Shown: positions 1,302 to 27,815 of the stretch, piece after piece | Position numbering within the stretch: position 1 is the stretch's first letter | Layout: every line of letters begins with the position of its first letter | IMG/VR virus record: IMGVR_UViG_3300028534_000007 | Length of the DNA: 44,622 nucleotides | Origin: a virus | Strand: one strand, 5' to 3' | Translations under genes and position numbers: made by a program | Notes under the pieces: generated by a model | Seen by the model: the letters and a program-made list of their open reading frames with translations, nothing else | Database searches by the model: none | What the model was told of the DNA's origin: nothing

Positions 1302-1331
1302 TTGACATACATATATAACTTATGTTATAAT
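1302..1331 (+). promoter_or_regulatory. Sigma70-type early promoter (TTGACA, 18 nt, TGT-TATAAT)
   Basis: TTGACA at 1302-1307 and TATAAT at 1326-1331, with a TGn extended -10. It lies 41 nt upstream of the first rightward ORF. Confidence 0.6.
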
Positions 1332-4795: not shown

Positions 4796-4824
4796 TTTAC
4801 AAAGCAAAAATTTTATGTTATAAT
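4796..4824 (+). promoter_or_regulatory. Sigma70-type early promoter (TTTACA, 17 nt, TGT-TATAAT)
   Basis: TTTACA at 4796-4801 and TATAAT at 4819-4824. The spacer CAAAAATTTTATGT is shared with the promoters at 8328 and 44189. Confidence 0.6.
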
Positions 4825-8331: not shown

Positions 8332-8356
8332 CATAAACAAAAATTTTAGATACAAT
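8328..8356 (+). promoter_or_regulatory. Sigma70-type promoter (TTGACA, 17 nt, TACAAT)
   Basis: TTGACA at 8328-8333 overlaps the helicase stop codon, and TACAAT is at 8351-8356. The spacer CAAAAATTTTAGA is related to the one at 4802-4818. Confidence 0.55.
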
Positions 8357-8395: not shown

Positions 8396-9178
8396 ATGAT
8401 TTATCAATCTGAAAAAACAACTTCAGTTATGAGAGCTTTAAGTAAGTTTAGAGCTAAAGGGGTAACAGTTTACGCAGAGGCAACAAGAGCAATAACTAAA
8501 ACAGATACTATCCAATATGCGGATAGAAATGCTTTGATACAAGCAATTCAAGAGCCATTAATTGAGTGTAAGTTAGAGGTAACATATAGCACAGAATACC
8601 ATGAGGGGCAAGAATTTGCAGTTGTTACCATTACACACACAACATCAGGGCAGTTTATTAAATCTTATCAAAAGCTTTTTAATGTCGAGGTAGAAAAAAA
8701 ATCTACTAAATACAGCGAGTATTTGGATTATCAAGGGGCAGTAGAGAATATCCAAAAACAGAAAACTTACTTTTTTAGAACTATGACTTTAGATATTTTA
8801 ATGATTAGCGTTATAGAAAAAGGCGAGGAGTTAAAAGCACCTCAAGACTTATCTAAAAAAGTGGAGGCAAAAGCAGAACCACAAGAGCCAACAGCACAAG
8901 AATCAGATACACAAGCAGAGCCAACAGAGCCAAAAGCAGAGCCAAGAGACATAAGAGCAAGAGCAATATTAGAGTTATATATTAGAAGTGCAAACCACGC
9001 CAATAAAACAAAGGCGAAAAAATATGCCGAAATTGTCGGTGGTAAGGAATGGGAAGAGGGGTATGTAAAACATTTAGAAAAAATAGAAAAGCTAGAGAGG
9101 GTTCTTATCAAAAATGGACTTATTTGCGATATAAAAGCGAAACAACTAAAAGGGGGTAGAAATGGTAACAGCAAGTAA
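8396..9178 (+). CDS. erf: ERF-family single-strand annealing protein
   Basis: IQYADRNALIQAIQEPLIECKLEV, then ...VVTITHTTSGQ..., then YQGAVENIQKQKTYFFRTMTLDIL. This follows the P22 Erf pattern: Y-x-Y/ADL, a beta hairpin, then G..tYarrY. A P/E/A-rich linker follows. The gene sits next to an exonuclease gene. Confidence 0.7.
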   Translation: MIYQSEKTTSVMRALSKFRAKGVTVYAEATRAITKTDTIQYADRNALIQAIQEPLIECKLEVTYSTEYHEGQEFAVVTITHTTSGQFIKSYQKLFNVEVEKKSTKYSEYLDYQGAVENIQKQKTYFFRTMTLDILMISVIEKGEELKAPQDLSKKVEAKAEPQEPTAQESDTQAEPTEPKAEPRDIRARAILELYIRSANHANKTKAKKYAEIVGGKEWEEGYVKHLEKIEKLERVLIKNGLICDIKAKQLKGGRNGNSK

Positions 9179-13414: not shown

Positions 13415-13433
13415 GTTACCTTTTAAAGGTAAC
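13415..13433. terminator. Palindrome at the convergence point of the two arms (candidate bidirectional terminator)
   Basis: GTTACCTTT-T-AAAGGTAAC overlaps the terL stop codon. No clear U-tract. Confidence 0.25.
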
Positions 13434-15092: not shown

Positions 15093-15496
15093 TTACTACT
15101 TTTTAAAGCCTCTAAAATGGGGTCTGTGTGCCGGGCTGTTCCTGTTCTCTCTTCTAGTTCTATAATCTTAATAGCGTATTCTATTGCTATTACTATACTA
15201 GAGTTCTCTATTGTATCCCCCTTTAGTAGCTGATTATAAACTAACTCTACACTTCTTTTAGCAATTAAAAAGACTATCTCACCTATTTTGAATCCATAAT
15301 CATCTATTACCCCTTTTATATCCCTACTATTCCAAACCCTATTTTTCCTATTTTCTCCTACTATCTCCATTCTGTTTAGCACCCTCTTAACTCTTTGGTA
15401 AGATTGGCTAACCAATATATCATCTAAAATAGGGGTTCTAATAAGCTTTTCAAGCCCTTTTACTAACACAGCCTTTAAGAAGTCCCTCTCTATCAT
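15089..15496 (-). CDS. Hypothetical protein, positional candidate for terminase small subunit
   Basis: 135-aa ORF overlapping the terL start (ATGA). The call rests on position only. Confidence 0.35.
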   Translation of the reverse strand: MIERDFLKAVLVKGLEKLIRTPILDDILVSQSYQRVKRVLNRMEIVGENRKNRVWNSRDIKGVIDDYGFKIGEIVFLIAKRSVELVYNQLLKGDTIENSSIVIAIEYAIKIIELEERTGTARHTDPILEALKSSK

Positions 15497-18400
15497 TTAA
15501 GCCCTCCTATTGTCGCATTTAATGCTTCAATTCGTTCTTGTTCGCTTTGTGGTTCTTTTGCGTATTCTGTTATTAGTTTCCCCATAAAGAGTGGAACACT
15601 CATAACTTGTAGCAAGTTCTTATACTCTCCTCCCAGTGCCTCGTGTGGTGCATTAACTAAGTTTTCTAACACTCCTAAAACGGGGAATACATTACCAATT
15701 TTAGTCTCTCTATTAGGGTTAAAAATATCATTAGCCATCTGCAGTAATGCAATATGTGGCAACCCCTCAATAACACGCTCAATAAACACCTCGTCTTTTT
15801 TTTCCTCTCTTTGGTTTACAAAATCTCTAATAGTTAAAGCTATTGATGTGGAGACAAACATCATTTGAAATTTAAAAATGCTCTCACTATCAAAAGAGTA
15901 TAAATCCCTTAACAGAAGATTATCAAAGGATTGGACAGGAAAACTTAAAAGGGTCATTAGGCTTTTTAAAAGTGGGTTTCTGATTATAAAGAGTGGCATA
16001 TCTCCAATATTAGGCTTCCCAACCCATGAAGTTTGAAAACTCCTCATTGTGGCTCTAAAAACTTCTCTCTCTTCCTTAGTCCACTTATCAAAATTCATAG
16101 AGTTATCATCTATCTTTTTAAAAGCTCCTCTTAAAATCTTCTCTTTATCAGGTGTAAGCCCTAAAGTCTCAAGTCTCCTTTTGTTTAATCTATTTCCTTT
16201 GAAATGGTCTTTTAACCTGTTTAGGTTTGGCTCAAGGTTAAAGAGGTTTGCTAAATCGTCCAACGCTGGTAGCTGATTAAAGAAGAAAGTTATTCTTTGC
16301 TGTGCTGTTAGTATTCTATCTAGTGTGTCTATAACTTTCCCACCTATTGTAAAATCTTCCATATAATAAAGAGGGTTTTTAAGATGCTCGTCTGCTAATA
16401 CTCTATGATACCCATAACCTAATTCTTGAGCCATTTCACGAACTCTATTAGGCATTTTGCTAAACTCTCCCTTTGCTAACTCTCTAAAAGCCTTAAAACT
16501 CTTTCCAAAACTTCCATTCATTAAGGCTCTTGCACTAGCAGGGATTAGCTCTTGTAATGCACTAATACCTGATAAGTGGAGTAATTGGGCTACTGTTGCC
16601 TGACGTAGTAAATTGAAAAAGTCCCATAACCTTTTATTTTCTATATCTGTTACGGGTTTTCCTAAAATCATATTAGCATAATCTTTTATATCTCTTAGTA
16701 AGTCAATATCTCCACCATGCTCTTTGAATTCATTTTCTACCCTCTTAAGATAGTTTGTGATATTTGTTATCCCTTTAATTCCAAAAGCATAGTGTCCTAG
16801 TGCGATATTAGAATACCTATTCATAACGCTAAAAGCGTTAGTATCTACAAAGTCCACCATTTCCAATCTCTTACCACCAACTACAAGGGGTTTAATATTA
16901 AAGTCTATTGGTATCCTAAACTTAGCCCTATTAAAAAAGTCATCAACATTTTCCACCTCGTTAGGAGTAAATAGTTCATCCTCTTTCATAGCCTTGATAA
17001 ATTTATCACTCTTACCATAGGCTAACAATTGCTTAGCATATTTTTCTGCATCTTTTATATCTATATCTTTCCCAAACTCTCTTTTAAATCCCCTCTTAAT
17101 TGCTTCCCCATACCACTTAACAACCCTTTCTCTATCTGCTTTTGATAATTGTGCTACAAGGTCGTATGTGTGTGGGTTGTGAAACCTTGGGAAATAATCT
17201 TTTATCTTTCTAATACTTTTCATTCCATCAACATTGGCATCCACCATAGCTTTATATATATCATCATAAAATTTGTCAAAGGCTTTCTTAGCTTTTAGAT
17301 GATGTTCTGATAGTTGGCTAAAATCTCCTTTAGTGTATGCTCTCCCAATAGTATTATAAAACTCCTCTCTAAACTTCATGTGTTTTAGGGGGTTAAGACT
17401 TTTAAACCCTACAACCTTTTTATAGTCCTCTATGATAGGTGCTAGTTTTGAAAATAGTTCAGCCTGAAATCTTGCCTTAATGGTCTCTTTTATGTCTCCT
17501 GCTCCCTCTTCTGCTCCTCTTTCCATTAGAGAGTGCAAGTTATCGGTTAATATTTTCCCTAAAGTTTTTGTGTGCTTAAACGCCTCATCACTAAGGCTAT
17601 TTAATTTTTCAAAATAACCCTTAGTTCCCCCAACAATTCCGAAAGTTTCCCTTATTAAATTCTTTGGGCTTTTTGCTTTTTCTTTGGCTCTTTGCAGTAT
17701 GTCGCTTATTCCTTTTCTATATTTTATGCCTAATACACCAATAGCTAAAACAGCTAATACATCCAAAGGGCTCTCCCTGTCTGCTCCATCCCCTGCAAAT
17801 AAATCCTCATTGCTCCCAATCAATACGGCTGTTACTGCTCCAAGCCCACCCTTTTTAAATAGTTCTCTTACTTCGTCCTCTGTAAGCTCTCTTCCTTCGT
17901 ATTTTTTAAGTTCTTCTTTCGTCATAAATAGCCCATCATCAGACGCTATAATGCCCCCTGATTGATAGCTCTTAATGTTCTTATACCTTGGTTTGTAGTC
18001 TTGGGGTGCAAATTCCATCATTGATTCTAGCACAATTATATTACCTATATATTCCTCTATATCTTTATTTGTTGGCTTATGTTCCATAATTCTTAGTATA
18101 GAAGATTTAGACATTTTAATGTCTTCTCCTTCTAGCCCCATTATTTTTAACTGATTATTTCTTTCTTTTTTGCTCATTAGGGACAAGTCTATTACTAGGT
18201 CTCTTAGTGGGTGTTCTTTGTAGTTTTCGTAGTCCTTATATAGGGAAGGTTTCTTATATTTCTCTTTTTTAGATGCTTTATTTTTCTTACTGTATCCAAT
18301 CAATTTTCTTGTTGTTCCTTCTACAATTTCTACATCTATATAGTCACTTTTGCTAAAGTCTGCTAATCTCTTATAGTCTTTTCCTTCTAACCTATCCCCT

Positions 18401-19275
18401 ACTAAATCTTTTAATGTTTGTCTCCAAGTCTCATCACTAAACATTCTTCTTATAATGTCGGTTCTATTTGCTTTTAAATCAGTAGAAAACCTCATGGGTT
18501 TTCCTACTATCGACGAAACCACAATATCGTGAGGCTTGCTATTTGGGAGTTCAAATCTTCTCGTAGTCCAATCAATTAAATTATCTTTTGTCTCTTTAAC
18601 TGCTCTTACATCTTTAAAGTCAATTAGACTTGTAGCCCCACCTAAAAAGCCACTTAACAATAACTCTCCTATTGTATCACCTATATCTTTTTGTTTTTGT
18701 GTGGCTAAAAAGCTAAGGCTATCAAAAGCACCATATAAACCCATATCAATAGTAGCACCAACACCAAAACGCCCCATCGTTCCAATAGCGTTAAATCTAC
18801 TTAGTGCAAGCTCAGGAAGTATTATAGATGGGATAAGTAGGGGGTCGGTTAAGATATTAGTAGCAATGTTCACACTAGCCCAAAGTGTAGAGCCTTCACT
18901 AACTAACCCCGCTTCTCTCTCTCGTTTTTCTCTCTCCTTAATTGCTTCTAGTCTTCTATTAAAATCCTCTTGATTTTTTGCAACCCTTAAAGCAGGAATA
19001 TTATTTATATTTATCTGGTGTTCTCTTGCTAATTCTAAGTTACCTTTGTTTCCTAACTCTCTTTTAAATGCTCTATCTTCTACCTCATCGGAAAATAGTT
19101 CTTCAACACCTTGTGTTACATCTCTCCAACTATTAAGGGAATTATCTAAAATAATACTTGCTTTATCAAGAGCGTTCAAATCTTCATATTTTCCTACATC
19201 TAAAATCTGTCTTAGGCTGTCTTGTTGGTTTATCTCTGTTCCTGTGGAGTCGTAAAAGGGGTTTGTAAATGCCAT
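15493..19275 (-). CDS. Large internal virion (ejection/core) protein, T7 gp16-like, without a recognisable transglycosylase domain
   Basis: 1260 aa. REAGLVSEGS...TDPLLIPS and Gly-rich hydrophobic segments resemble gp16 AEAGLGAKLS...VDPLSYVP. Later blocks (FSVMNRYSNIALGHYAF) also resemble gp16. Size and position next to the terminase genes fit. Confidence 0.55.
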   Translation of the reverse strand: MAFTNPFYDSTGTEINQQDSLRQILDVGKYEDLNALDKASIILDNSLNSWRDVTQGVEELFSDEVEDRAFKRELGNKGNLELAREHQININNIPALRVAKNQEDFNRRLEAIKEREKREREAGLVSEGSTLWASVNIATNILTDPLLIPSIILPELALSRFNAIGTMGRFGVGATIDMGLYGAFDSLSFLATQKQKDIGDTIGELLLSGFLGGATSLIDFKDVRAVKETKDNLIDWTTRRFELPNSKPHDIVVSSIVGKPMRFSTDLKANRTDIIRRMFSDETWRQTLKDLVGDRLEGKDYKRLADFSKSDYIDVEIVEGTTRKLIGYSKKNKASKKEKYKKPSLYKDYENYKEHPLRDLVIDLSLMSKKERNNQLKIMGLEGEDIKMSKSSILRIMEHKPTNKDIEEYIGNIIVLESMMEFAPQDYKPRYKNIKSYQSGGIIASDDGLFMTKEELKKYEGRELTEDEVRELFKKGGLGAVTAVLIGSNEDLFAGDGADRESPLDVLAVLAIGVLGIKYRKGISDILQRAKEKAKSPKNLIRETFGIVGGTKGYFEKLNSLSDEAFKHTKTLGKILTDNLHSLMERGAEEGAGDIKETIKARFQAELFSKLAPIIEDYKKVVGFKSLNPLKHMKFREEFYNTIGRAYTKGDFSQLSEHHLKAKKAFDKFYDDIYKAMVDANVDGMKSIRKIKDYFPRFHNPHTYDLVAQLSKADRERVVKWYGEAIKRGFKREFGKDIDIKDAEKYAKQLLAYGKSDKFIKAMKEDELFTPNEVENVDDFFNRAKFRIPIDFNIKPLVVGGKRLEMVDFVDTNAFSVMNRYSNIALGHYAFGIKGITNITNYLKRVENEFKEHGGDIDLLRDIKDYANMILGKPVTDIENKRLWDFFNLLRQATVAQLLHLSGISALQELIPASARALMNGSFGKSFKAFRELAKGEFSKMPNRVREMAQELGYGYHRVLADEHLKNPLYYMEDFTIGGKVIDTLDRILTAQQRITFFFNQLPALDDLANLFNLEPNLNRLKDHFKGNRLNKRRLETLGLTPDKEKILRGAFKKIDDNSMNFDKWTKEEREVFRATMRSFQTSWVGKPNIGDMPLFIIRNPLLKSLMTLLSFPVQSFDNLLLRDLYSFDSESIFKFQMMFVSTSIALTIRDFVNQREEKKDEVFIERVIEGLPHIALLQMANDIFNPNRETKIGNVFPVLGVLENLVNAPHEALGGEYKNLLQVMSVPLFMGKLITEYAKEPQSEQERIEALNATIGGLK

Positions 19276-19314
19276 GCTATAACCTTTTTGTATAGATTAT
19301 AGCATATAAAGAAG

Positions 19315-19473
19315 TTATGAAAGGTTGTGTTTTTTAAGAAACCTTGTAAGGGTAGAATAAGAAACTTTTAAGCCTCTAGCTATCACAGCCTTTGGCACTC
19401 CTAAAGAGAGGAGTTTTTTTATCTCCTCTAAGTCTTTATCTTTTAATTTTGTGCTTTCTTTTGGTCTTGCCAT
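19315..19473 (-). CDS. Small helix-turn-helix protein (Hin/resolvase-type HTH), not in the ORF track
   Basis: My translation: MARPKESTKLKDKDLEEIKKLLSLGVPKAVIARGLKVSYSTLTRFLKKHNLS (52 aa). It has the G-x-s...IA..lgvS..TL.R.L pattern. Its start overlaps the upstream small ORF stop (TAATG). Confidence 0.45.
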   Translation of the reverse strand: MARPKESTKLKDKDLEEIKKLLSLGVPKAVIARGLKVSYSTLTRFLKKHNLS

Positions 19474-19580
19474 TATAGAGCCTTTAATGTCAAACCTAAG
19501 AATATATTTTCTACTGCAAAGAAAATCAAACTTGCTATAAATGCAATCCCTATTACCTTAATTATTAGTTCCATTTTCAT
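19473..19580 (-). CDS. Possible 35-aa single-pass membrane peptide, not in the ORF track
   Basis: My translation: MKMELIIKVIGIAFIASLIFFAVENIFLGLTLKAL. It fills the gap between 19558 and 19473 and is coupled at both ends. Confidence 0.3.
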   Translation of the reverse strand: MKMELIIKVIGIAFIASLIFFAVENIFLGLTLKAL

Positions 19581-20208
19581 TCTTTATGTCTCCTCTTTTA
19601 TTTTGCAATATTTGTCTAGCTTTATCTCTAGTAACTAAAGCTACTCTTTGGCTCTTTGGTTTTGTGGTTAATATTTCCCACTCCTCGAACATAGAGAGCC
19701 AATATCTAATCTCTCTAAAGTATTTCTTCCTGTTGACTGTTTGAAACTCCTCTAATGGAGTAAGTATTCCGAATCTATTTACCTTGCCACCATTATACAA
19801 GTCCTCTAAAAGCATATAAGGGGAAAAATCTCCATATAATGCATTGCTATTTTTTATATACTCTTTTAACTCTTTAATCTTGTCTTCTTGTCTTTTTACC
19901 TCCTTTTTTAATTGGTGTTGCTTTTGTCTTAAGTCTTTTATCATCTTACCAGCTTTTAAAAGTAGCTTTCCTATCTTATCTATCTCCTCGCCTTTTATAT
20001 GCTCTGTGAGTTCTAAGAGTTTTTGTAGAAACACTTTTAAAACTGTGGACTCTACAACGCTAACCTCACTTACACTACCTTGTAGCTTGTAAGATGGTAA
20101 ATCTACTTTTATTTTATCCTCTTCTACAACAATAGCCTTTGTGAGGTCTGCTGTGCGATAAAACGCCTTTATGTTGGCGTTTATATTATCTATAAACTTC
20201 TTCACCAT
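19558..20208 (-). CDS. Hypothetical coiled-coil protein
   Basis: 216-aa ORF overlapping the upstream gene by 23 nt. It has a K/E-rich central helix. Confidence 0.55.
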   Translation of the reverse strand: MVKKFIDNINANIKAFYRTADLTKAIVVEEDKIKVDLPSYKLQGSVSEVSVVESTVLKVFLQKLLELTEHIKGEEIDKIGKLLLKAGKMIKDLRQKQHQLKKEVKRQEDKIKELKEYIKNSNALYGDFSPYMLLEDLYNGGKVNRFGILTPLEEFQTVNRKKYFREIRYWLSMFEEWEILTTKPKSQRVALVTRDKARQILQNKRGDIKNENGTNN

Positions 20209-21676
20209 CTATCCACCCTCTAAATTGTCTTTCATAAGCTTCACGCTTTTTCTTTTCGATAGCTAACGCTACACTATCGCCGATTTGTTTGGTTGCGATG
20301 TCTGCTAGTTCGGACATTTGATGTTGTATTCTACCGTATGTCTCTGCTTGTTGTGACATCTGATTTAAAGCTACTTGAGTATCTATCTCGCTTCTATATC
20401 TTAATACCTCTAGTTCTTGGTTTGTTGCTTCCATTTGGTCGCCGTAGAAACTATATAGCCTACGCTTAGCCCCTCTCATTTTGCCTAGCATTGCCTCAAG
20501 CGTATTTATTTCGCTCTCTATTTTATCCCATTCATCTACACCCATTTTGACGGCGTTCACATGCAATAGGAAATTTCCTAACAACTTCCCGTAACTAGCC
20601 ACCTCTAAAATAACAATAAAGCCAAATATCAAGAGATAATCGTTATGGGCATTTTTCTTAAACTCACTATCTAATTCTTTCAACTCTTTTTTGAGTGCTA
20701 TGGTTTTCATAGCTATCTTTTCATCTATCTTACTTACTTCGTTTTGATACCGTTCTATAACTTCTAACTTGCCTTTTTCTCTAACCTCTAATTTTTTAAT
20801 TTGGTTCATAGCGTTATAGAAGTTTCTTGTTTCAGCTCTAGGGTGTCTCTTTCTGCTGTTATAGGTATCTATTACGTCTTGGTTTAGTGTTTTTGAGTTC
20901 TGTATAGACTGTAAATCCATTTGGAATTGTGCTATAGATTCTTCTAATTGTTTCTTTTGTCTTTCTAGCCCATCTATTTGCTTTTGTAATCTTTGGGCTA
21001 TAATTGAGTTTGTGTGTGTGTTGTCTTTTAATGCCTCGGCTTTCTTGACTTTTTGGTTCGCTTTTGTCATATAGGTTACTGCTCTGCTTTCAAAATAAAG
21101 CCCAGCCCCGACAAATAAAAAGAATAAAGTGATTAATACCATTTTAGCCTTAATACTGTTATCCTTATTGAACCACCCAATAGAGAATAGATGTCCTCCT
21201 CCAATAATTATAACAGCAATAAAGAAAGCAATAGAGTATCTTACGCCATCGCCCCATGTCGCATAGGACTCTTTAAACTGGTTGCTAAAATCTAGCTCTA
21301 CTCCCCACATAGCAACTAATACTGTTAGAATACTAGCAACCCAGCCGACAATGCCAAGCCATCTAACTATCACTCTAATATTTCTAATAGAGTGCATCTC
21401 TTTAGCCTCTTTTACAACCTCACGCCACTGATGGGCTTCAGGGTCATCAGCACTAAGCCCCAACCTTTTGGTTATTGGGTCATCTTCGTTACTGCTTCTT
21501 AGTTTGTTCACTTTATTTTTATATTTATACTTCAATGAATCCACCACACTAGTGTAATCTTGATTATAGTATGCACTACTAGTAGCCCCTGCTTGGCTAT
21601 ATCCTTGGTGATGTCCTTGATTATTATTGTTTTGATTGTTTTGTGTGTTACTCATATTTAAACTCCTTGTAAACAA
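20186..21676 (-). CDS. Multi-pass membrane protein with N/Q-rich N-terminus and long coiled coils (candidate ejection or membrane-remodelling protein)
   Basis: 496 aa with an AAGGAG SD. Hydrophobic helices IVGWVASILTVLVAMWGV, IAFFIAVIIIGGGHLFSIGWF, MVLITLFFLFVGAGLYF and LLIFGFIVILEVASYGKLLGNFLL. Confidence 0.6.
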   Translation of the reverse strand: MFTRSLNMSNTQNNQNNNNQGHHQGYSQAGATSSAYYNQDYTSVVDSLKYKYKNKVNKLRSSNEDDPITKRLGLSADDPEAHQWREVVKEAKEMHSIRNIRVIVRWLGIVGWVASILTVLVAMWGVELDFSNQFKESYATWGDGVRYSIAFFIAVIIIGGGHLFSIGWFNKDNSIKAKMVLITLFFLFVGAGLYFESRAVTYMTKANQKVKKAEALKDNTHTNSIIAQRLQKQIDGLERQKKQLEESIAQFQMDLQSIQNSKTLNQDVIDTYNSRKRHPRAETRNFYNAMNQIKKLEVREKGKLEVIERYQNEVSKIDEKIAMKTIALKKELKELDSEFKKNAHNDYLLIFGFIVILEVASYGKLLGNFLLHVNAVKMGVDEWDKIESEINTLEAMLGKMRGAKRRLYSFYGDQMEATNQELEVLRYRSEIDTQVALNQMSQQAETYGRIQHQMSELADIATKQIGDSVALAIEKKKREAYERQFRGWIDGEEVYR

Positions 21677-21710
21677 AAAAAGCCCCTACCCTAACTAAAG
21701 GATAGAGGCT
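21674..21710 (-). terminator. Rho-independent terminator closing the 22868-21734 cassette
   Basis: On the minus strand: AGCCTCTATCC, loop tttagtta, GGGTAGGGGCT, then TTTTTTT. The stem is 11 bp including two G-U pairs. It lies 24 nt after the stop at 21734. Confidence 0.65.
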
Positions 21711-21733
21711 TAAAGATTGGAAGAGAAAAAGAA

Positions 21734-22279
21734 CTATTTTAAAAGTTCGACTAACTTTTTCGCACCCTCTAAAGAGAGAGATGCAACGCTATCTTTAAGA
21801 GATTTTACCCCTAAGTCTGATGGGTTTGGTAGCCCCTTTTTCTTTTCAAAAGCTATAATATCGAACACATTAAAAATTTTAGTAGTGCTTGGAGTTATCC
21901 TCTTTAATTTTTTAGCGTCATCAATCCCTAAGTAACTTTGAGAGTATGTTTTAAACGCTAGTGCTATACTGTTTTGATAATCTTTAACACTCTCTCCTAA
22001 CTCTACCCCTTTTACCAGTGGCTCAATCGCCTTTAAAACTTCTTTATCCCAATTAGAAGCCGTTTTAGAAAAATCAATCTTTAAAGCGTAAGTATTAAAT
22101 ATTTGCTGAAAAGACTTGTCGTTATTTGCTAACTCCTGAAACTCTCTAGCCCCAATGTCTGCTTTTTGTATAGAGCTACCTTTGTTAAACTTATCGTTCC
22201 ATATCTTAGCTAGTTTTCTAGCGATTATCTTTGCCTCTACTGTTGAAAGCTCTACGCCTCTTCTTTCTTCTTTTGCCAT
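21734..22279 (-). CDS. Hypothetical protein (second gene of the autonomous cassette)
   Basis: 181-aa ORF with an AAAAGGA SD. I recognise no motif. Confidence 0.6.
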   Translation of the reverse strand: MAKEERRGVELSTVEAKIIARKLAKIWNDKFNKGSSIQKADIGAREFQELANNDKSFQQIFNTYALKIDFSKTASNWDKEVLKAIEPLVKGVELGESVKDYQNSIALAFKTYSQSYLGIDDAKKLKRITPSTTKIFNVFDIIAFEKKKGLPNPSDLGVKSLKDSVASLSLEGAKKLVELLK

Positions 22280-22355
22280 AATTTAATCCTTTTCAGTTTA
22301 TTTAATTTTAGGGTTAATACCCATTCAAACACCCCTTAGGGTGCTTTGATAGATA

Positions 22356-22868
22356 TTAAAACTCTTCTAACTCTTCTAAAAGGTTATCTAATTCCTCAAC
22401 GTTATCTTCAATATTTGTTACTTCTATCATATTGTCAAGATAATCAATCGCAAGATAATCCCAAAGTAATGGGAAAAACTCGCTTAGGCTATTCTCTGCT
22501 TTATCAGCTAAAACGAATTTAAGTCCTCTCTCTTCTGGAACAACTACAACCATGATATTCTTATTCTCTTTAACTGTAAATATAGTTGGAATGATTGGAA
22601 TATCTTTTATTATAATTCCTCTCGTCTCTGTATCTTTAATCTTACTATATTCAATATTTCTTCTTTCTAACTCTTCTACTAGCATAGCCTTAAGCTCACC
22701 CATAGTATCACACTTAATTACTTCTATTTCATCATCTTCATCTACTACACCTGTTATAGCTACACAGTTTCCATTGAAACAAAGTCTTTCTATTGCCCCT
22801 ACTGTATGAAGATACATAAAGCCTATCTTTTCGGTAAACATAGTTTCTATTTTGTTACTCTCTATCAT
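22356..22868 (-). CDS. Strongly acidic hypothetical protein (first gene of the autonomous cassette; DNA-mimic candidate)
   Basis: 170 aa. By eye there are far more D/E than K/R residues, with an acidic tail EDNVEELDNLLEELEEF. It has a GAAAAGGA SD and its own consensus promoter. Confidence 0.6.
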   Translation of the reverse strand: MIESNKIETMFTEKIGFMYLHTVGAIERLCFNGNCVAITGVVDEDDEIEVIKCDTMGELKAMLVEELERRNIEYSKIKDTETRGIIIKDIPIIPTIFTVKENKNIMVVVVPEERGLKFVLADKAENSLSEFFPLLWDYLAIDYLDNMIEVTNIEDNVEELDNLLEELEEF

Positions 22869-22902
22869 CTTAAGAAATCCTTTTCATGTTTTTGATTAAG
22901 AA

Positions 22903-22931
22903 TATTATAGCGGTTTTTGCACTAAATGTCA
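22903..22931 (-). promoter_or_regulatory. Consensus sigma70 promoter (TTGACA, 17 nt, TATAAT) for the acidic-protein cassette
   Basis: On the minus strand, TTGACA at 22931-22926 and TATAAT at 22908-22903. Confidence 0.65.
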
Positions 22932-22950
22932 ATCAAAAACCATGTTTTTG
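22932..22950. promoter_or_regulatory. Operator-like palindrome abutting the -35, with further half-sites
   Basis: TCAAAAAC-CATG-TTTTTGA at 22932-22950. Additional half-sites are CATGTTTTTGATT at 22884-22896 (between the -10 and the start codon) and TCAAAAA at 22963-22969. Confidence 0.45.
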
Positions 22951-23036
22951 ACATACTTTTTTATCAAAAATCCACACTCCCAAAAATACAAATTAGAAAC
23001 TTTTTTTAAAAATAAAGTTAGTTGGATTTTTTTTAT

Positions 23037-23114
23037 TTTTACACTGTGAAAGCTCCACACTTTTACGCTGTGAAAGCTCTACACTTTTACACTATAAAAG
23101 CTCCACACTTTTAC
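23037..23114. repeat. Tandem array, 24-bp unit TTTTACRCTRTRAAAGCTCYACAC, 3.3 copies
   Basis: Units at 23037-23060, 23061-23084 and 23085-23108, with a partial unit at 23109-23114. Confidence 0.85.
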
Positions 23115-23216
23115 ATTTTTTTATCTGTCTTTTTCGCTGATTTTTTCCAACAATTTACCTCGTTCTAGCTTAGCTAAAATGGGGCTTTTATAAATTTTAT
23201 TTTGAGTCAAAAAGAA

Positions 23217-23304
23217 GTGCACATTTTATACTAAAAATGTGCGAACATTTTATACTAAAATTGTGCGAACATTTTATACTAAAATTGTGCGAACATTTTA
23301 TACT
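23217..23304. repeat. Tandem array, 24-bp unit GTGCGAACATTTTATACTAAAATT, about 3.7 copies
   Basis: Units at 23217-23238 (22-nt variant), 23239-23262 and 23263-23286, with a partial unit at 23287-23304. Confidence 0.85.
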
Positions 23305-23546
23305 TTTTTAACTGTTTTTTTTATCATCTAAAAAGTATATATTTTGTCTTTTTTACCTGATTAAAAGAGAAATTTAAGGGAGTAAATAGTTATTGAAAGC
23401 AATTTAAATCAAAAACGCTCATATTAAGCCATAAATAGCCTTTTATCATTACGAATACTAACCCCTTAGTTACCTTAAGTTTGTGGATTTATGGCTAATT
23501 ATAGAGGCTGTTTTTTTAAGGTTAAATAAAGAAATAACGCATATTG

Positions 23547-23999
23547 TTATATTAATAACATTGCCCCTTGTGTTACGCTGGAAACTATACCACTTATCAC
23601 ACTGGCTCGTGTAGTTTTAGCAGTAGCTTTAAATTGTCTCCTTGTAGTCTCGTTCAAATACTCTTGTTTTTCTAACAAGTCATTAATATTATTATCTCTT
23701 AGTTGGAGTAGCTGGATTTGCTGTGTTCTTACTGGATTTGTTTTTAGTCCATAGTTTACTATCCCGCTATTAGACTCTAAAGATAATTTTTGCCCCAGTA
23801 GATAACTACCTTGTAGTTGTAATTCTGCGTTACTTGCTCCATAGTCTATTAATACTTTGTTATAGTCTGATTGATACTGACTAGAAAGAAAATCATAATT
23901 ATACTGTATCTCTTTTAATTGCCTTTTTCCTTGGCTGTAAGCATTCCAAGTATTAACTATTGTATTGGCTAGGTTTGCATATCCTCCATAATCTACCAT
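23547..23999 (-). CDS. Hypothetical protein, possibly a small internal virion protein (gp14-like)
   Basis: 150 aa, Q/N/S-rich with a hydrophobic C-terminus (ISGIVSSVTQGAMLLI). The assignment rests on composition and position only. Confidence 0.45.
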   Translation of the reverse strand: MVDYGGYANLANTIVNTWNAYSQGKRQLKEIQYNYDFLSSQYQSDYNKVLIDYGASNAELQLQGSYLLGQKLSLESNSGIVNYGLKTNPVRTQQIQLLQLRDNNINDLLEKQEYLNETTRRQFKATAKTTRASVISGIVSSVTQGAMLLI

Positions 24000-24426
24000 T
24001 ATCTAATTCCTTTAAATCTCCATAAATATACTTATCTTTCCAAATCCCTTTTTTATCTGCATAAAATACCCTTGCTTTTGGATAGTGCTTGATTATCTCT
24101 CTAAATGCCCTTATAAGCCTTTTTTTGTTTCCCTCAACCCAATATATATATAAACCCTCGTTTGTCTCTCCTTGTTGCTTTATGAGGCATGGGAAGACTA
24201 TTAATTTATAATCTTCCCCTACTACTATATTCTTTATTATGTCTTTACACAAAGAGATGTTACACATATAGATATTATAACAATAAAAAAGTTCCAACAA
24301 TCTTTTATATAGAAGATAAACAATTTTATAACCTATATAATATCTTAAGGAAAACTTTCTATCTCTAGCAAATAGACATAAAAATATACCTAAAAGAAAT
24401 AGCAAAAAGATAAACAATATATACAA
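23953..24426 (-). CDS. Hypothetical protein; true start probably ATG 24267 (104 aa)
   Basis: The first 53 codons of the tracked ORF lie in promoter-like, very AT-rich DNA and encode an implausible F/L/Y-rich peptide. TGT-TATAAT at 24282-24274 sits 6 nt upstream of ATG 24267. Confidence 0.4.
   Translation of the reverse strand: MYILFIFLLFLLGIFLCLFARDRKFSLRYYIGYKIVYLLYKRLLELFYCYNIYMCNISLCKDIIKNIVVGEDYKLIVFPCLIKQQGETNEGLYIYWVEGNKKRLIRAFREIIKHYPKARVFYADKKGIWKDKYIYGDLKELDNGRLWRICKPSQYNS
24274..24282 (-). promoter_or_regulatory. Possible extended -10 promoter (TGtTATAAT)
   Basis: The minus strand reads TTGTTGGAACTTTTTTATTGTTATAAT-atctat-ATG. If this is real, the mRNA would be nearly leaderless. 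Confidence 0.3.
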
Positions 24427-24650
24427 AATACTTGTATTTATTTATATACATATATATATTCACTATATAATATATATAGTCACTTATCACGGTTTTTTTG
24501 GGTAAATTCAGCATATACCCATACTTATATACTTTCTTTATTACTTGTTAGTGCTGGAGTGGTATAGGTGCTATCTATACCCCCAACACATAAATAATAA
24601 AAGATAAGATGATTATATAAAGCAATATCTCAAAACTCATATTCTTTTTT

Positions 24651-26414
24651 TTACAAATCAAGCTGAACTCTTGCCATTATTTCAGCTCTAAACCATACGC
24701 CGTCAATATCTCTTGGGTTGCCATAGGTTACATTTTTGCTCTCTGGAACTTCAAAGATTAAGAAATCAACATCTTTGTTATTCTCTATTTTAGAGAAAGT
24801 AGGATAAAAAGGAATAGCGTTTGGGTTTGCTGGAATAGTGTAATAGGCTACCCCAACAAACCAAGTATCTAGTAATGTTGTAATTGGGGTAAAGTCCCCT
24901 AATATCCCTTTTAAATCTAAATTTACTTTTGTTAAATCTGTGCTTGGTATTTGCTCGTTTAGATTTTTTACTCTAAATTGTAAGTTAATAAAAGCCATCT
25001 CCCCTTGCACATCTACGATAAGGCTGAATGGGTCTATATTTCCCCCACCTTTATAGTCTCCTCCTACTATGGTTACATCGTTTTCAAATGCACTAGGTAA
25101 AGGAGTGTAGTCTTTTACATATCTACTTATCCCCTGAATTATCTTCTTTCTGTCGTCTGTCCCTGCTTTGTGTGCAAATCCTTTTAATTCTGCTATTAAA
25201 TTATTATCTCTATATACTTCAAAAAAGGTTGAAGAATTGTTGAAAGTTATACAATCATCAGTATCAGTCCCTAGATTGATACACTTTTTAAAATGTGCTT
25301 TCTCTTCAAAAGTTGATGTGGCTTTCACTGTTAGAGTGTCACTATCTGCATCACCTAGTGTGGTATTTCCCTGAACCTCTAAATCTTTTTCAAAAGTCCC
25401 TTTTTCTTTAGCTTGCAGGGTTCCGTTTATCAGCGTGTTATCTGTTGGGCTATCACCTAAAGTTGTATTCCCATCAGCAGTTAAAGCACCCTCTATATAT
25501 ACATTCTTTTTAGCTGTTACATTTTCATTAAAAGTAGATACGCCTTTTACAATAATAGAGTCTGTGTTATCACTTCCAAGATTCACATTTCCTTGTAAGT
25601 CTGTATCCCCTTGAACTTCAAGCCCTTTTTCTGCTGTCATATCCTCTTTAAAAGTAGAGGTAGCTTTTACGGTTAGTGTATCTGTGCTATCTTCTCCAAG
25701 TGTTGTATTATCTGCAACACTTAGGTTATTCCCAACACTTAACCCTTTTTCTGCTGTCATATCCTCTTTAAAAGTAGAGGTAGCTTTTACGGTTAGTGTA
25801 TCTGTGCTATCTTCTCCAAGTGTTGTATTGTCTTTTATAGTTAGGTTTTGGGCTTCAATATCTTTAAATTGTGGAGTTCCATTGAAAATTATTTTATCGC
25901 TTGTTTCATTTCCTAATACAACATCACCATTTACATATAAATCTTTTTTTAGTTCTGTGTCCTCTTCAGCAACTAAAACCCCTTTTACTCTGATTGTGTC
26001 GGCGTCTGTATCTCCTAAAAAAGTATCGCCATTTAGTTTAGTTACTCCATCAACTGTTAAGTTTTTATCTGCTTGAATATCCTCTTTAAAGGCTGAAGTC
26101 CCTTTTATTTCTATGGTGTCGGATGAGTCGTCACCTAGTGTAGTGTTACCATTGACTAGCAAATTACTATCTGCTGTTAAATTCCCTTTAACTGTTGCAT
26201 TGCCATCTAAAGATGTATCATTAGTAACCTTTAAAGTGTCAAGTGTAGTTAATTTAGTAGCCTCATCAAAACTAGCTATAATCTCTCCATCTTGTGTGAG
26301 TATTTGAGTTTGCTTATTGTCTCCTGCTTTTATTGTTACATTACAATCTGCACACTCTAAAGAACTACTACCTTTCCCTATTAATTGCTCATAATCTCTA
26401 TTTTCTAGACTCAT
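24651..26414 (-). CDS. Repeat-rich fibre/spike-like protein (about nine 40-aa beta-rich repeats plus a C-terminal globular domain)
   Basis: 587 aa. The repeat consensus is GNTTLGDDSxDTLTVKGTSTFKEDxTAxKNLxV. Its start overlaps the holin stop (ATGA). Confidence 0.65.
   Translation of the reverse strand: MSLENRDYEQLIGKGSSSLECADCNVTIKAGDNKQTQILTQDGEIIASFDEATKLTTLDTLKVTNDTSLDGNATVKGNLTADSNLLVNGNTTLGDDSSDTIEIKGTSAFKEDIQADKNLTVDGVTKLNGDTFLGDTDADTIRVKGVLVAEEDTELKKDLYVNGDVVLGNETSDKIIFNGTPQFKDIEAQNLTIKDNTTLGEDSTDTLTVKATSTFKEDMTAEKGLSVGNNLSVADNTTLGEDSTDTLTVKATSTFKEDMTAEKGLEVQGDTDLQGNVNLGSDNTDSIIVKGVSTFNENVTAKKNVYIEGALTADGNTTLGDSPTDNTLINGTLQAKEKGTFEKDLEVQGNTTLGDADSDTLTVKATSTFEEKAHFKKCINLGTDTDDCITFNNSSTFFEVYRDNNLIAELKGFAHKAGTDDRKKIIQGISRYVKDYTPLPSAFENDVTIVGGDYKGGGNIDPFSLIVDVQGEMAFINLQFRVKNLNEQIPSTDLTKVNLDLKGILGDFTPITTLLDTWFVGVAYYTIPANPNAIPFYPTFSKIENNKDVDFLIFEVPESKNVTYGNPRDIDGVWFRAEIMARVQLDL
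25623..25829. repeat. Exact 87-bp direct repeat with a 120-bp period inside the fibre gene
   Basis: 25623-25709 is identical to 25743-25829. Both copies encode NTTLGEDSTDTLTVKATSTFKEDMTAEKGL. Confidence 0.9.
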
Positions 26415-26791
26415 TTTATTTTTATCTCCTTAGTATCTATATTTTTATTTTTTTCGTATGTTCTCATGGTCGCTATCCCCAACACCCCAGCAACCATCGC
26501 AATAATAGCCTCTGTATCGATTGGCTTTATATCCAATCCAAAACTATTTAATATTGGAACCACAACAGAATTAAAACCAATCCCAATAGCTCCAATCCAA
26601 CCGATAAGAGGACGCCAACCTGCAACATATATATCCCCCTCCTTATCTGTTAAAGGTGGTAAATCTTGTTTACCCTCTTCTCGTCCTACCTCTCCCCTTA
26701 TTTCTGTATCTGCTGGAACCACCTCTCTATTAGAGGTTGTATTATAATATTGCTCCATATCTGCTTTTATTTTGTTTTCTTCTTTTTCCAT
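26411..26791 (-). CDS. Putative holin
   Basis: 126 aa with a charged N-terminus, then AGWRPLIGWIGAIGIGFNSVVVPIL and AIIAMVAGVLGIATM hydrophobic helices and a basic C-terminus. It lies adjacent to the endolysin gene. The WRP-hydrophobic block is reminiscent of GTA-type holins. Confidence 0.55.
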   Translation of the reverse strand: MEKEENKIKADMEQYYNTTSNREVVPADTEIRGEVGREEGKQDLPPLTDKEGDIYVAGWRPLIGWIGAIGIGFNSVVVPILNSFGLDIKPIDTEAIIAMVAGVLGIATMRTYEKNKNIDTKEIKIK

Positions 26792-26804
26792 TATGTTCCT
26801 TTCT

Positions 26805-27260
26805 TTATTGTTTTATTTTTAATTCTCTTCTAATGGATAAAATTTCTCTAATTTTACCAACATCAAAACAAGGACACATTTTATTACCTGCTATTTCCCT
26901 ATGCCCCAAAATCTTATCTATTCCAATTCCATATCTTTTTCTTAAATCCTCTAAAAGAGATATCAGGGATTTAAATTGTTTCTCATGAAACTTTGACTTA
27001 ACATCCCCTATCATACATATAGATATTTGTCCTTTATTATGCCCTTTAATACTTGCTGGGTCTAGCTTTAAGTCCCTTCCTACCTCTATTTGCCCAACAA
27101 GAGGTTCAATAAAAGTATCCTTGTTTATCCACCCATTTAAGATAACAAAGTGATATCCTATATCTTTAAAACCCCTCTTTAAATGCCACTCTCTTATAAG
27201 TGAAGCACTCCCAAAGCTAGACGCTGAACAATGGATATTTATTCCCTTAATTGTTCTCAT
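26805..27260 (-). CDS. Endolysin, N-acetylmuramoyl-L-alanine amidase (T7 lysozyme gp3.5-like, Amidase_2/PGRP)
   Basis: 151 aa. INIHCSAS, IREWHLKRGFKDIGYHFVI, GHNKGQISICMIG and ILGHREI..NKMCPCFDV are colinear with T7 lysozyme. Confidence 0.92.
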   Translation of the reverse strand: MRTIKGINIHCSASSFGSASLIREWHLKRGFKDIGYHFVILNGWINKDTFIEPLVGQIEVGRDLKLDPASIKGHNKGQISICMIGDVKSKFHEKQFKSLISLLEDLRKRYGIGIDKILGHREIAGNKMCPCFDVGKIREILSIRRELKIKQ

Positions 27261-27550
27261 AGTTTAACAACTCCTAAAAGTATTCCTAATAGCGTTGTAA
27301 TCGCCACGCTAGATACGCCTATTATTATTTTTAGAGTTAAATCTTTACTCTTTATAACTTCGCTCTCTAATCTATCTATCCTCTTATGTATAACTTTTCT
27401 CGCTTCATCTGCAAAAGTCTTATTGTATTCTATTTCTTTTTGTATTGCTTCAAAATGGGATAGAATCTTAGCCATTTTGGAAACAGCATCTTTTAAGTCT
27501 TTTATATCTTGTTGTATCTTATCTAACGTCTCGTTCATCGCAACAGCCAC
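27257..27550 (-). CDS. Tail-anchored coiled-coil membrane protein of the lysis cassette (function unclear)
   Basis: 93-97 aa, starting at GTG 27550 or ATG 27538. It has an N-terminal amphipathic coiled coil and a single C-terminal TM helix, IIIGVSSVAITTLLGILLGVV. Its stop overlaps the endolysin start (ATGA). Confidence 0.5.
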   Translation of the reverse strand: MAVAMNETLDKIQQDIKDLKDAVSKMAKILSHFEAIQKEIEYNKTFADEARKVIHKRIDRLESEVIKSKDLTLKIIIGVSSVAITTLLGILLGVVKL

Positions 27551-27815
27551 CCCAACCTTTTAAACTGTCCTCTATCCTAAGGTTCAATCTTCTAATAAGC
27601 TCATAAGTCTTTTTTATTTCACAATTTATAGTTTTTCCCCCGTCCCAACAACTACCAGTGTAGTAACTATAAGGTTGCGGAGTTATGTATATCTCTTTTG
27701 CCTTGTTTGGAGCTACTGTTTTTGGTTTGGAGTCTATCTTTATTTGTTTTGGTTCGGGCTCTACGCACCCTATAAAAACAAAACTTATAATTAAAAGATA
27801 AAACAATATTCGCAC
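27519..27815 (-). CDS. Lipoprotein, o-spanin-like (Pro-rich, Cys-rich)
   Basis: GTG start with an AAAGGA SD. Signal peptide MRILFYLLIISFVFIG|C with a lipobox-like FIGC. The mature N-terminus is proline-rich (VEPEPKQIKIDSKPKTVAPNK), and there are five further Cys residues. Confidence 0.6.
   Translation of the reverse strand: MRILFYLLIISFVFIGCVEPEPKQIKIDSKPKTVAPNKAKEIYITPQPYSYYTGSCWDGGKTINCEIKKTYELIRRLNLRIEDSLKGWGGCCDERDVR

What the first reader, a model, noticed from the sequence alone, without database searches (positions are those of the whole stretch)
21674..22969. Autonomous promoter-operator-terminator cassette encoding a highly acidic 170-aa protein, embedded in the late structural arm
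A perfect TTGACA-17-TATAAT promoter (22931-22903) is bracketed by TCAAAAA/TTTTTGA half-sites. These comprise the palindrome at 22932-22950, CATGTTTTTGATT at 22884-22896 between the -10 and the ATG, and TCAAAAA at 22963-22969. The promoter drives two genes (22868-22356 and 22279-21734), which end at a strong intrinsic terminator (21710-21674). The first product is extremely acidic, with a run of D/E at both the centre and the C-terminus. That is the signature of DNA-mimic anti-restriction or anti-defence proteins such as Ocr and ArdA. The unit looks like a regulated moron inserted between candidate internal-virion genes. A consensus host promoter implies expression immediately on DNA entry, or independently of late control.
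Basis: partly seen in the sequence, partly recalled or inferred. Interest (0 to 1): 0.65.

Follow-up and report, generated by a model that had tools for sequence, protein, structure and literature searches.

The report
Self-regulated orphan-gene cassette in podophage
A strong host-type promoter with a conserved operator, a two-gene message and a terminator really are there, at the head of a 4.3-kb block of orphan genes that this uncultured T7-like phage lineage gained, but nothing tested supports the idea that the acidic protein is a DNA-mimic anti-restriction factor.

Summary
The perfect TTGACA-17-TATAAT, the dyad TCAAAAAC-ATG-GTTTTTGA beside the -35 and the 13-bp terminator are conserved in a sister lineage. 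However, this promoter is one of three perfect and five near-perfect sigma70 promoters in a complete 44.5-kb phage genome with no recognisable phage RNA polymerase. One of the others heads the portal-capsid-tail genes, so a consensus promoter does not by itself imply early expression. Two relatives (TerL 55-58% identical) have gp14-like, gp15-like and gp16-like genes in direct succession. Here the gp15-like gene sits at 2629-4680(+), and its old slot holds a 678-bp spacer and six orphan ORFs. The last ORF is a 52-aa invertase-type HTH protein. The operator half-sites match the Hin half-site GGTTTTTGATAA at 9-11 of 12 positions, which suggests autorepression. The acidic (pI 4.2) and basic (pI 9.5) proteins have no homologues outside this lineage, structure prediction failed, and no Ocr or ArdA signal was found. 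The net charge of the acidic protein drifts between -22 and -15. The unit is moron-like, and the function of its proteins remains unknown.

The parts
23406..23417 (-). Distal isolated half-site CGTTTTTGATTT, 9/12 to the Hin half-site
   Evidence: The GTTTTTGA core is kept in L001/L003.
23221..23304 (.). Tandem array B: 3.5 copies of a 24-bp unit (AGTATAAAATGTTCGCACAATTTT on the minus strand)
   Evidence: TRF score 154 with 98% matches. Found nowhere else in the genome. Copy number and period are kept in L001/L003, with the same A-to-G change in every copy.
23116..23220 (.). Spacer between the arrays, holding a roughly 54-nt stretch identical in all four loci, followed by an A-rich tract
   Evidence: alignment columns 357-410.
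23037..23115 (.). Tandem array A: 3.3 copies of a 24-bp unit (GTAAAAGTGTGGAGCTTTCACAG), each with an internal dyad TGTG-N7-CACA
   Evidence: TRF score 130. Unique in the genome. Kept in L001/L003 with the same two changes in the dyad spacer of every copy.
22973..23036 (.). Tract of roughly 83% A+T between array A and the operators
   Evidence: Read directly.
22961..22972 (-). Upstream half-site GATTTTTGATAA, 11/12 to the Hin half-site
   Evidence: the only match with 1 mismatch or fewer in the genome. It reads GATTTTTGGTAA in L001/L003.
22933..22951 (.). Dyad operator TCAAAAAC-ATG-GTTTTTGA abutting the -35
   Evidence: The core TCAAAAA-N5-TTTTTGA is kept in L001/L003. Arms match the hix half-site 9/12 and 10/12 (PMC3241671 Table 3).
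22904..22932 (-). Sigma70-type promoter TTGACA-17-TATAAT (12/12)
   Evidence: Both hexamers and the spacer length are identical in all four loci.
22887..22898 (+). Downstream half-site TGTTTTTGATTA (10/12) over the expected transcription start
   Evidence: Its core is changed (TGA to TAA) in L001/L003.
22356..22868 (-). Gene for the acidic 170-aa orphan protein, with RBS GAAAAGGAT at 22877-22885
22314..22359 (-). Conserved 19-bp interrupted RNA hairpin covering the acidic gene's stop codon; a candidate processing or stabilising site
   Evidence: -23.6 kcal/mol, z -3.4. The spacer is 92-93% identical to the sister lineage. All 19 pairs are kept, with one U-A to C-G double change.
21734..22279 (-). 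Gene for the basic (pI 9.5) 181-aa orphan protein, predicted all-helical, with the same GAAAAGGAT RBS
21672..21711 (-). Intrinsic terminator: 13-bp stem plus T-run
   Evidence: Two 3'-arm changes in L001/L003 keep pairing, and 100% of cells are paired.
20186..21655 (-). 489-aa orphan protein with four hydrophobic segments and long coiled coils. The ATG at 21655 has RBS AAGGAG and starts about 12 nt after the terminator's T-run
   Evidence: No homologue in L004/L009.
19558..20208 (-). 216-aa basic coiled-coil orphan protein
19473..19580 (-). 35-aa hydrophobic ORF whose stop codon overlaps the next ATG (TAATG)
   Evidence: Also called as a gene in L002.
19315..19473 (-). 52-aa stand-alone invertase-type HTH protein; candidate operator-binding protein
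   Evidence: Pfam HTH_7 E 5.7e-5. NCBIfam Mpi invertase C-terminus E 3.4e-5. 37% identical to Mu Gin residues 142-179. Identical between the two lineages apart from a one-residue insertion.

Best explanation
The finding is the head of a lineage-specific accessory block (19315-23546) that sits where relatives keep their gp15-like gene. Shown: a consensus host promoter with a conserved dyad next to its -35 transcribes a two-gene message, with the acidic 170-aa gene first and the basic 181-aa gene second. A conserved long hairpin lies between the genes, and a strong intrinsic terminator follows them. Inferred: the block's own last gene, a 52-aa Hin/Gin-type HTH domain without a recombinase domain, binds the hix-like dyad and shuts the promoter off. 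Resolvases are known to repress their own promoters at res sites in a similar way. Because the HTH gene lies beyond the terminator, it would accumulate only slowly by read-through or from upstream late transcription. The two promoter-proximal proteins would then be made in a strong burst that is later damped. The hairpin would stabilise or process the message, and the terminator would act as an attenuator. The two proteins are orphans. My best guess is that they are non-virion host-interaction proteins, and the faster-evolving acidic one may bind a basic host or phage target. DNA mimicry is only one unproven version of that guess.
For: The promoter, dyad, hairpin and terminator are real and beyond chance. 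All are kept in the sister lineage L001/L003, whose flanking genes have dS of 0.9-1.4, while the proximal spacer is 91% identical. The block is absent from L004 and L009, which go gp14-like, gp15-like, gp16-like as T7 does. L004 has no consensus promoter or strong terminator in that arm. The gp15-like gene survives at 2629-4680(+), so the block adds to virion functions rather than replacing one. The HTH is of invertase type. The operator half-sites match the hix half-site GGTTTTTGATAA at 9-11/12, and three of the 15 genome-wide matches with 2 mismatches or fewer cluster in 86 bp (PMC3241671). The HTH is invariant between lineages, as is the dyad core. The acidic gene has dN/dS 0.39 against 0.06-0.11 for its neighbours. 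No promoter-like site lies between the 181-aa gene's start and the next gene's ATG.
Against: No binding, transcript or protein data exist. The HTH scores just under Pfam's cut-off (23.6 against 23.8 bits), and phmmer did not retrieve the Hin DNA-binding domain from the PDB at E of 1 or less. Specificity cannot be safely transferred at 31-37% identity. The dyad spacing is 1 bp shorter than in hix. Hin-like 12-mers are not enriched genome-wide (15 against 11.6 expected). The two flanking half-sites are degraded in the sister lineage although its HTH is identical. The two 24-bp arrays are not explained by this model. With only two effective lineages, the covariation evidence is one pair (153 of 500 shuffles reach it). 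Position among the ejection-protein genes fits a virion role equally well.
Confidence: 0.45

Rival explanations
1. One reading: the acidic protein is an Ocr/ArdA-like DNA mimic made immediately on DNA entry, and it blocks type I restriction, BREX or similar defences.
For: pI 4.24 and net charge -22, the highest acidic fraction in the genome. A strong host-type promoter. Orphan status and raised dN/dS, as expected for arms-race genes. The gene lies in inserted DNA.
Against: No similarity to any anti-restriction or DNA-mimic family. No usable structure (pLDDT 39). Beta-prone sequence, unlike Ocr. Net charge and the central acidic run are not conserved (-22, -18, -15). Equally perfect promoters drive structural genes. 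Genome ends are unknown, so 'first to enter' cannot be claimed.
Confidence: 0.12
2. Both proteins are abundant internal-virion, ejection or assembly proteins. The promoter boosts this part of the late operon, as T7 phi13 does before genes 13-16. The terminator sets stoichiometry, as T-phi does after T7 gene 10.
For: The unit lies between the gp14-like (23547-23999) and gp16-like (15493-19275) genes. T7 itself has promoter phi13 ahead of its internal-virion genes. Downstream genes lack their own promoter, so the unit is co-transcribed with them. The 181-aa protein matches T7 gp14 in size and pI (196 aa, pI 9.55). The 489- and 216-aa proteins are membrane or coiled-coil proteins with weak structural-type PHROG hits.
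Against: No homology to T7 gp13, gp14 or gp15. Relatives build virions without any of these genes. The gp15-like gene is retained elsewhere, so no gap needs filling. A repressible operator is unusual for a plain late booster.
Confidence: 0.25
3. The 678-bp spacer is a replication origin or another protein-loading site. The two iteron-like arrays and the A+T-rich tract would be activated by transcription from the adjacent promoter, and the basic 181-aa protein would bind the repeats.
For: Two unique 24-bp arrays with conserved copy number, array A units with internal dyads, and an adjacent tract of about 83% A+T. The spacer is 91% conserved although it is non-coding. No origin or initiator has been identified elsewhere. 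From my own knowledge, T7 origins are promoter-associated.
Against: GC skew only follows the coding strand and shows no change near 23 kb. No DnaA boxes or initiator homologue were found. The 2-kb repeat-rich divergent control region at 44190-1586 is at least as good a candidate. Concerted change within tandem arrays can come from homogenisation alone. Relatives lack this spacer.
Confidence: 0.12

Closest known systems
Morons of lambdoid phages (Juhala et al. 2000; Hendrix et al. 2000; from my own knowledge)
   Same: The unit has its own sigma70 promoter and a factor-independent terminator. It lies between genes that are adjacent in relatives and inside a late structural operon.
   Different: The host phage looks lytic, with no integrase seen. 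Base composition does not differ from the neighbours. The insertion is a 4.3-kb, six-ORF block with its own putative regulator and a 678-bp repeat-bearing spacer. The terminator cannot be tight, because downstream genes depend on read-through.
T7 gene 0.3 (Ocr) early unit
   Same: A small acidic protein is encoded first after strong host-RNAP promoters. A hairpin follows the gene, much as RNase III sites flank the 0.3 message (own knowledge).
   Different: No sequence similarity, and probably a mixed or beta-rich fold. The charge is less dense and not conserved. The gene is not at a known genome end and lies in the structural arm.
T7 late signals phi13 and T-phi
   Same: An internal promoter lies just ahead of internal-virion genes, and a terminator acts as an attenuator inside a long operon.
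   Different: The promoter here is a host sigma70 type with an operator. Relatives L004 and L009 have no such signals at this place.
Hin/Gin DNA invertases with hix/gix sites, and Tn3/gamma-delta resolvase autorepression at res
   Same: The 52-aa protein is an HTH_7 domain with the RP arm and an STLxR(F/Y) recognition helix. The operator half-sites match GGTTTTTGATAA at 9-11/12. Resolvases repress promoters by binding such sites (own knowledge).
   Different: There is no catalytic domain. Only one full dyad is present, with spacing 1 bp shorter than the 12-2-12 of hix. Nothing suggests an invertible segment.

Membership tests
Ocr (T7 gp0.3) DNA mimics | Sequence membership in the Ocr family | tested here: not met
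   No Pfam, PHROG or NCBIfam hit and no tblastn hit in 50,697 phage records. That Pfam carries an Ocr model is from my own knowledge and was not verified.
Ocr (T7 gp0.3) DNA mimics | All-helical fold displaying a DNA-like array of carboxylates | tested here: inconclusive
   The AF2 model has pLDDT 39, and fold searches returned nothing. The sequence has long beta-prone I/V/T/F runs, which argues against an all-helical fold.
Ocr (T7 gp0.3) DNA mimics | Very high, conserved negative charge | tested here: inconclusive
   Net charge is -22 over 170 aa here, but -15 and -18 in L001/L003. The central run changes from VVDEDD to KKDEDF.
Ocr (T7 gp0.3) DNA mimics | Inhibits type I R-M or BREX | not testable with these tools
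   Needs expression and plating assays.
ArdA anti-restriction proteins | Sequence membership in the ArdA family | tested here: not met
   No hit at E of 0.1 or less. No PDB sequence hit. That Pfam carries an ArdA model is from my own knowledge and was not verified.
Moron | Own sigma70 promoter and own intrinsic terminator | tested here: met
   Both are conserved in the sister lineage.
Moron | Lies between genes that are adjacent in related phages | tested here: met
   L004 and L009 have gp14-like, gp15-like and gp16-like genes in succession with no such genes between them. Qualification: the inserted block is larger than the promoter-terminator unit, and the gp15-like gene was relocated.
Moron | Base composition distinct from neighbours | tested here: not met
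   GC is 0.32-0.36, like the rest of the arm.
Moron | Expressed independently of the surrounding operon | not testable with these tools
   Needs transcript mapping.
Hin/Gin-type site-specific invertase system | C-terminal HTH_7 DNA-binding domain | tested here: met
   Pfam HTH_7 at 23.6 bits against a 23.8 cut-off, so borderline. Mpi invertase C-terminus E 3.4e-5. Mu Gin 37% identity. Not retrieved from the PDB by phmmer.
Hin/Gin-type site-specific invertase system | Serine-recombinase catalytic domain | tested here: not met
   The protein is only 52 aa and aligns only to residues 142-179 of Gin.
Hin/Gin-type site-specific invertase system | Two inverted 26-bp (12-2-12) sites flanking an invertible segment | tested here: not met
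   There is one full dyad with 12-1-12 geometry plus isolated half-sites (PMC3241671 Table 3).
T7 internal virion proteins gp13/gp14/gp15 | Sequence similarity | tested here: not met
   BLASTP against T7 gp13-15 gives nothing below E 0.3. No PHROG hit.
T7 internal virion proteins gp13/gp14/gp15 | Presence in the virion | not testable with these tools
   Needs proteomics of an isolate.
Iteron-type replication origin | Three or more direct repeats next to an A+T-rich tract | tested here: met
   The A+T-rich tract was read.
Iteron-type replication origin | Cognate initiator, or a skew switch at the site | tested here: not met
   No initiator family was found. Skew follows the coding strand only.

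The most novel reading that the evidence does not exclude
A DNA-invertase binding domain has been domesticated as a free-standing 52-aa repressor. Acting on hix-like operators, it times a burst of two orphan proteins from a consensus host promoter in a T7-like phage that lacks its own RNA polymerase. The acidic protein would be a new-fold inhibitor of a host defence or DNA-binding target, and the iteron arrays would add a second layer of control.
Probability: 0.12. Interest if true: 0.7.

Novelty: new variant of a known kind. Interest (0 to 1): 0.45.

Why it matters
If the circuit works as proposed, it shows how T7-like phages without their own RNA polymerase time gene expression using only host-type promoters. 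Each control region would be gated by its own DNA-binding protein. The proposal also gives a small, easily synthesised test system: a 52-aa protein and a 19-bp dyad. The two orphan proteins are candidates for new host-interaction functions, and the slot upstream of gp16 appears to be a hot spot where related phages carry different cargo. As it stands, the proteins' function is unknown and the unit is a variant of the familiar moron layout.

Tried and rejected
1. P0005, a 1794-aa repetitive fibre-like protein, was the only remote hit for the acidic protein (E 1.5e-7). I rejected it. The score is summed over six near-identical repeats, a profile-profile test gives 0.9% probability, and P0005 also 'hits' unrelated Pfam families.

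2. Structure route. Both AF2 models were poor (pLDDT 39 and 44). Foldseek against the PDB and BFVD gave no match below E 0.05, and full-length alignments had TM-scores of 0.3 or less.

3. SSB idea, prompted by the beta-beta-beta-alpha-beta pattern and the acidic tail ending in F. No SSB or gp2.5 family hit was found, and the tail ends in I in the sister lineage. I dropped it.

4. 'The block replaces a lost gp15.' This is refuted, because the gp15-like gene is at 2629-4680(+).

5. PADLOC gave no hit.

6. Rfam gave only sub-threshold PyrR and PyrG-leader matches over the terminator.

7. A metagenome scan for the array A unit gave 0 hits, and IMG/VR scans with the 181- and 489-aa proteins gave no relatives.

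8. Host inference from the amidase failed. The best genomic relatives are only 31-39% identical, and there are no tRNAs.

9. Recent recombination as the cause of spacer conservation. Identity along the region is patchy, without clear mosaic borders, so this stays unresolved.
Full report
CONTEXT. The window's two ends overlap by exactly 127 bp, so it is a complete circular assembly of 44,495 bp at 33.5% GC. It encodes a T7-type structural module on the minus strand:
- portal at 40948-42417 and major capsid protein at 37304-38194;
- tail tubular proteins A and B at 36719-37300 and 34593-36722;
- a gp16-like internal virion protein at 15493-19275;
- TerL at 13416-15092, at most 38% identical to any isolated phage.

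Replication genes lie on the plus strand. No phage RNA polymerase was recognised. DNA of the region has no match among 50,697 phage records.

OBSERVATION.
- The promoter is TTGACA (22932-22927), a 17-nt spacer, and TATAAT (22909-22904) on the minus strand.
- A perfect match occurs three times in the genome. Markov-1 simulations give a mean of 0.07, and 0 of 1000 reach three.
- The dyad TCAAAAAC-ATG-GTTTTTGA (22951-22933) abuts the -35.
- Single half-sites lie at 22964-22970 and at 22885-22895.
- TCAAAAAC occurs 10 times against 3.3 expected. Three copies fall within 64 bp here and a fourth at 23409 in the same spacer.
- The two ORFs (170 aa, pI 4.24, net charge -22; 181 aa, pI 9.46) are confirmed.
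- The 13-bp-stem terminator is confirmed at -20.5 kcal/mol, z -3.4.

1. The promoter is not unique. Equally perfect promoters sit at +1302 and -44189, and 11/12 promoters at +4796 and +8328. Each lies in a spacer about 25-30 nt ahead of a GAAAAGGAT-type ribosome-binding site. The promoter at -44189 heads the portal-capsid-tail arm. A consensus promoter is therefore this phage's general way of making transcripts, not a mark of early expression.

2. The 678-bp spacer upstream is the largest inside the coding arms. It holds two different 24-bp tandem arrays, at 23037-23115 and 23221-23304. Both are unique in the genome.

3. Between the two genes lies a 19-bp interrupted hairpin that covers the acidic gene's stop codon (-23.6 kcal/mol, z -3.4).

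4. The next gene's AAGGAG and ATG (21655) begin about 12 nt after the terminator's T-run. No promoter-like site of 9/12 or better lies between the 181-aa gene's start and that ATG. The following genes (489 aa, 216 aa, 35 aa, 52 aa) must therefore be reached by read-through. A possible extended -10 (TGcTATAAT) just before the gp16-like gene may serve the rest of the arm.

RELATIVES. The two proteins have relatives only in three JGI contigs. L002 is nearly identical to the window. L001 and L003 form a sister lineage, with the acidic protein 78-80% and the 181-aa protein 87% identical.

An exhaustive HMMER search of 1.84 billion representatives added only P0005. I reject that hit as a repeat-inflated artefact.

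Against the sister lineage:
- Flanking genes have dS of 0.9-1.4 and dN/dS of 0.06-0.11.
- The proximal spacer is 91% identical and the inter-gene spacer 92-93% identical.
- The acidic gene has dS 0.33 and dN/dS 0.39.
- Both promoter hexamers, the spacer length, both arrays (with the same changes in every copy) and the dyad core TCAAAAA-N5-TTTTTGA are kept.
- The two flanking half-sites each carry a core substitution.
- The hairpin keeps all 19 pairs, with one U-A to C-G double change.
- The terminator keeps all 13 pairs through two wobble changes.

With only two effective lineages this covariation is suggestive, not significant (153 of 500 shuffles reach the observed value).

SYNTENY. Two more distant relatives were recovered: L004 (TerL 55%, gp16-like 41-45% identical) and L009 (TerL 58%, gp16-like about 48-54% identical).
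- Both carry a gp14-like gene (155 and 161 aa; 34% and 32% identical to window 23547-23999).
- It is followed directly by a 687- or 661-aa gene and then the gp16-like gene, as in T7.
- L004 has no consensus promoter or strong terminator anywhere from tail fibre to TerL.
- L009 has a different insertion just before its gp16-like gene: a 79-aa membrane ORF plus a reverse-strand 214-aa ORF.

In the window, the homologue of the 687/661-aa gene is at 2629-4680 on the plus strand (43-46% identity), behind the promoter at +1302. Segment 19315-23546 is therefore a lineage-specific 4.3-kb block sitting in the old gp15 slot. None of its genes has a homologue in L004 or L009. This supports the 'moron-like insertion' reading. 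It also shows that the unit is bigger than the promoter-terminator pair, and that it does not replace a lost virion function.

A CANDIDATE OPERATOR-BINDING PROTEIN. The last gene of the block (19315-19473) encodes a 52-aa HTH_7 protein. The evidence for its type is:
- Pfam E 5.7e-5, at 23.6 bits against a 23.8 cut-off;
- the NCBIfam Mpi-invertase C-terminus, E 3.4e-5;
- 37% identity to residues 142-179 of Mu Gin;

It is identical in the two lineages apart from a one-residue insertion.

PMC3241671 (Table 3) gives hixL as TTCTTGAAAACC AA GGTTTTTGATAA. The window's half-sites compare as follows:
- GATTTTTGATAA, 11/12;
- GGTTTTTGATTG, 10/12;
- TGTTTTTGATTA, 10/12;
- TGTTTTTGACAT, 9/12;
- CGTTTTTGATTT, 9/12.

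Three of the 15 genome-wide matches with 2 mismatches or fewer cluster in 86 bp around the promoter. That cluster includes the only match with 1 mismatch or fewer.

I infer that this 'mini-Hin' binds the dyad and represses the promoter. The caveats are:
- phmmer did not retrieve the Hin DNA-binding domain from the PDB;
- the dyad is 1 bp tighter than hix;
- such 12-mers are not enriched genome-wide;
- specificity cannot be transferred with confidence at this level of identity.

THE PROTEINS. Neither protein hits Pfam, PHROGs, NCBIfam, PADLOC or PDB sequences. AF2 models were poor (pLDDT 39 and 44), and fold searches were empty.

The acidic protein has long beta-prone stretches and an acidic, amphipathic C-terminal helix. 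Its net charge is -22, -18 or -15 depending on lineage. The central acidic run is partly replaced in the sister lineage. Several structural proteins of this phage have pI 4.3-4.5.

The DNA-mimic idea thus rests on composition only. It is neither excluded nor supported.

VERDICT. It is not supported for protein function or for the inference of timing.

My best explanation (0.45) is a self-regulated accessory module. Its promoter-proximal pair would be made in a burst and then damped by the module's own HTH. The rivals are virion or ejection proteins with a booster promoter (0.25), an Ocr-like DNA mimic (0.12), and an origin-linked module (0.12). The two arrays remain unexplained.

Noticed in passing
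window 1-127 and 44496-44622: An exact 127-bp terminal overlap shows that the window is a complete circular assembly with a unique length of 44,495 bp. The physical genome ends are unknown.
   Followed up: partly
window 2629-4680 (+): The gene that sits between gp14-like and gp16-like in relatives L004 and L009 (gp15 position) has been moved to the opposite strand. It now lies behind the perfect promoter at 1302-1331 (43-46% identity).
   Followed up: yes
window 1302-1331, 4796-4824, 8328-8356 (+); 44189-44161 (-): Four further consensus or near-consensus sigma70 promoters each lie about 25-30 nt ahead of a GAAAAGGAT-type RBS. No phage RNA polymerase or DNA polymerase was recognised, although the structural module is T7-type.
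   Followed up: partly
window 44190-44622 plus 1-1586: A roughly 2-kb non-coding divergent control region carries at least five GGCTACC(T)5 boxes (tandem at 44329-44386, an inverted pair at 224-253). This is a different repeat from the one at the finding's promoter, which suggests a separate regulator.
   Followed up: no
window 26411-27815 (-): A lysis cassette (amidase 26805-27260, holin-like 26411-26791, and two small ORFs) sits between tail genes. It is absent from that position in L004 and present upstream of the fibre gene in L009.
   Followed up: partly
L009 4798-5684: This relative has a different insertion immediately upstream of its gp16-like gene: a 79-aa membrane ORF and a reverse-strand 214-aa basic ORF flanked by a bidirectional hairpin. 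The slot before gp16 looks like a hot spot for cargo.
   Followed up: partly
window 19473-19580 (-) and 19297-19305: A 35-aa hydrophobic ORF ends in TAATG, overlapping the HTH start, which suggests translational coupling. A possible extended -10 (TGcTATAAT) lies just before the gp16-like gene.
   Followed up: no
window 22335-22635 and 19259-19455: Synonymous divergence from the sister lineage is unusually low in the C-terminal two-thirds of the acidic gene (90-97% nucleotide identity; gene-wide dS 0.33 against 0.9-1.4 in neighbours) and in the HTH gene. The cause is unresolved; it could be recombination or a constraint at the nucleotide level.
   Followed up: partly
window 24235-25400 compared with L003: The C-terminal part of the 587-aa fibre-like protein is not alignable between otherwise close lineages. 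This is the usual pattern for receptor-binding domains.
   Followed up: no
window 8864-8964 (+): A 21-bp tandem repeat of 4.8 copies lies inside the 260-aa ORF, which has its own near-consensus promoter and sits just upstream of the RecE-like exonuclease gene.
   Followed up: no
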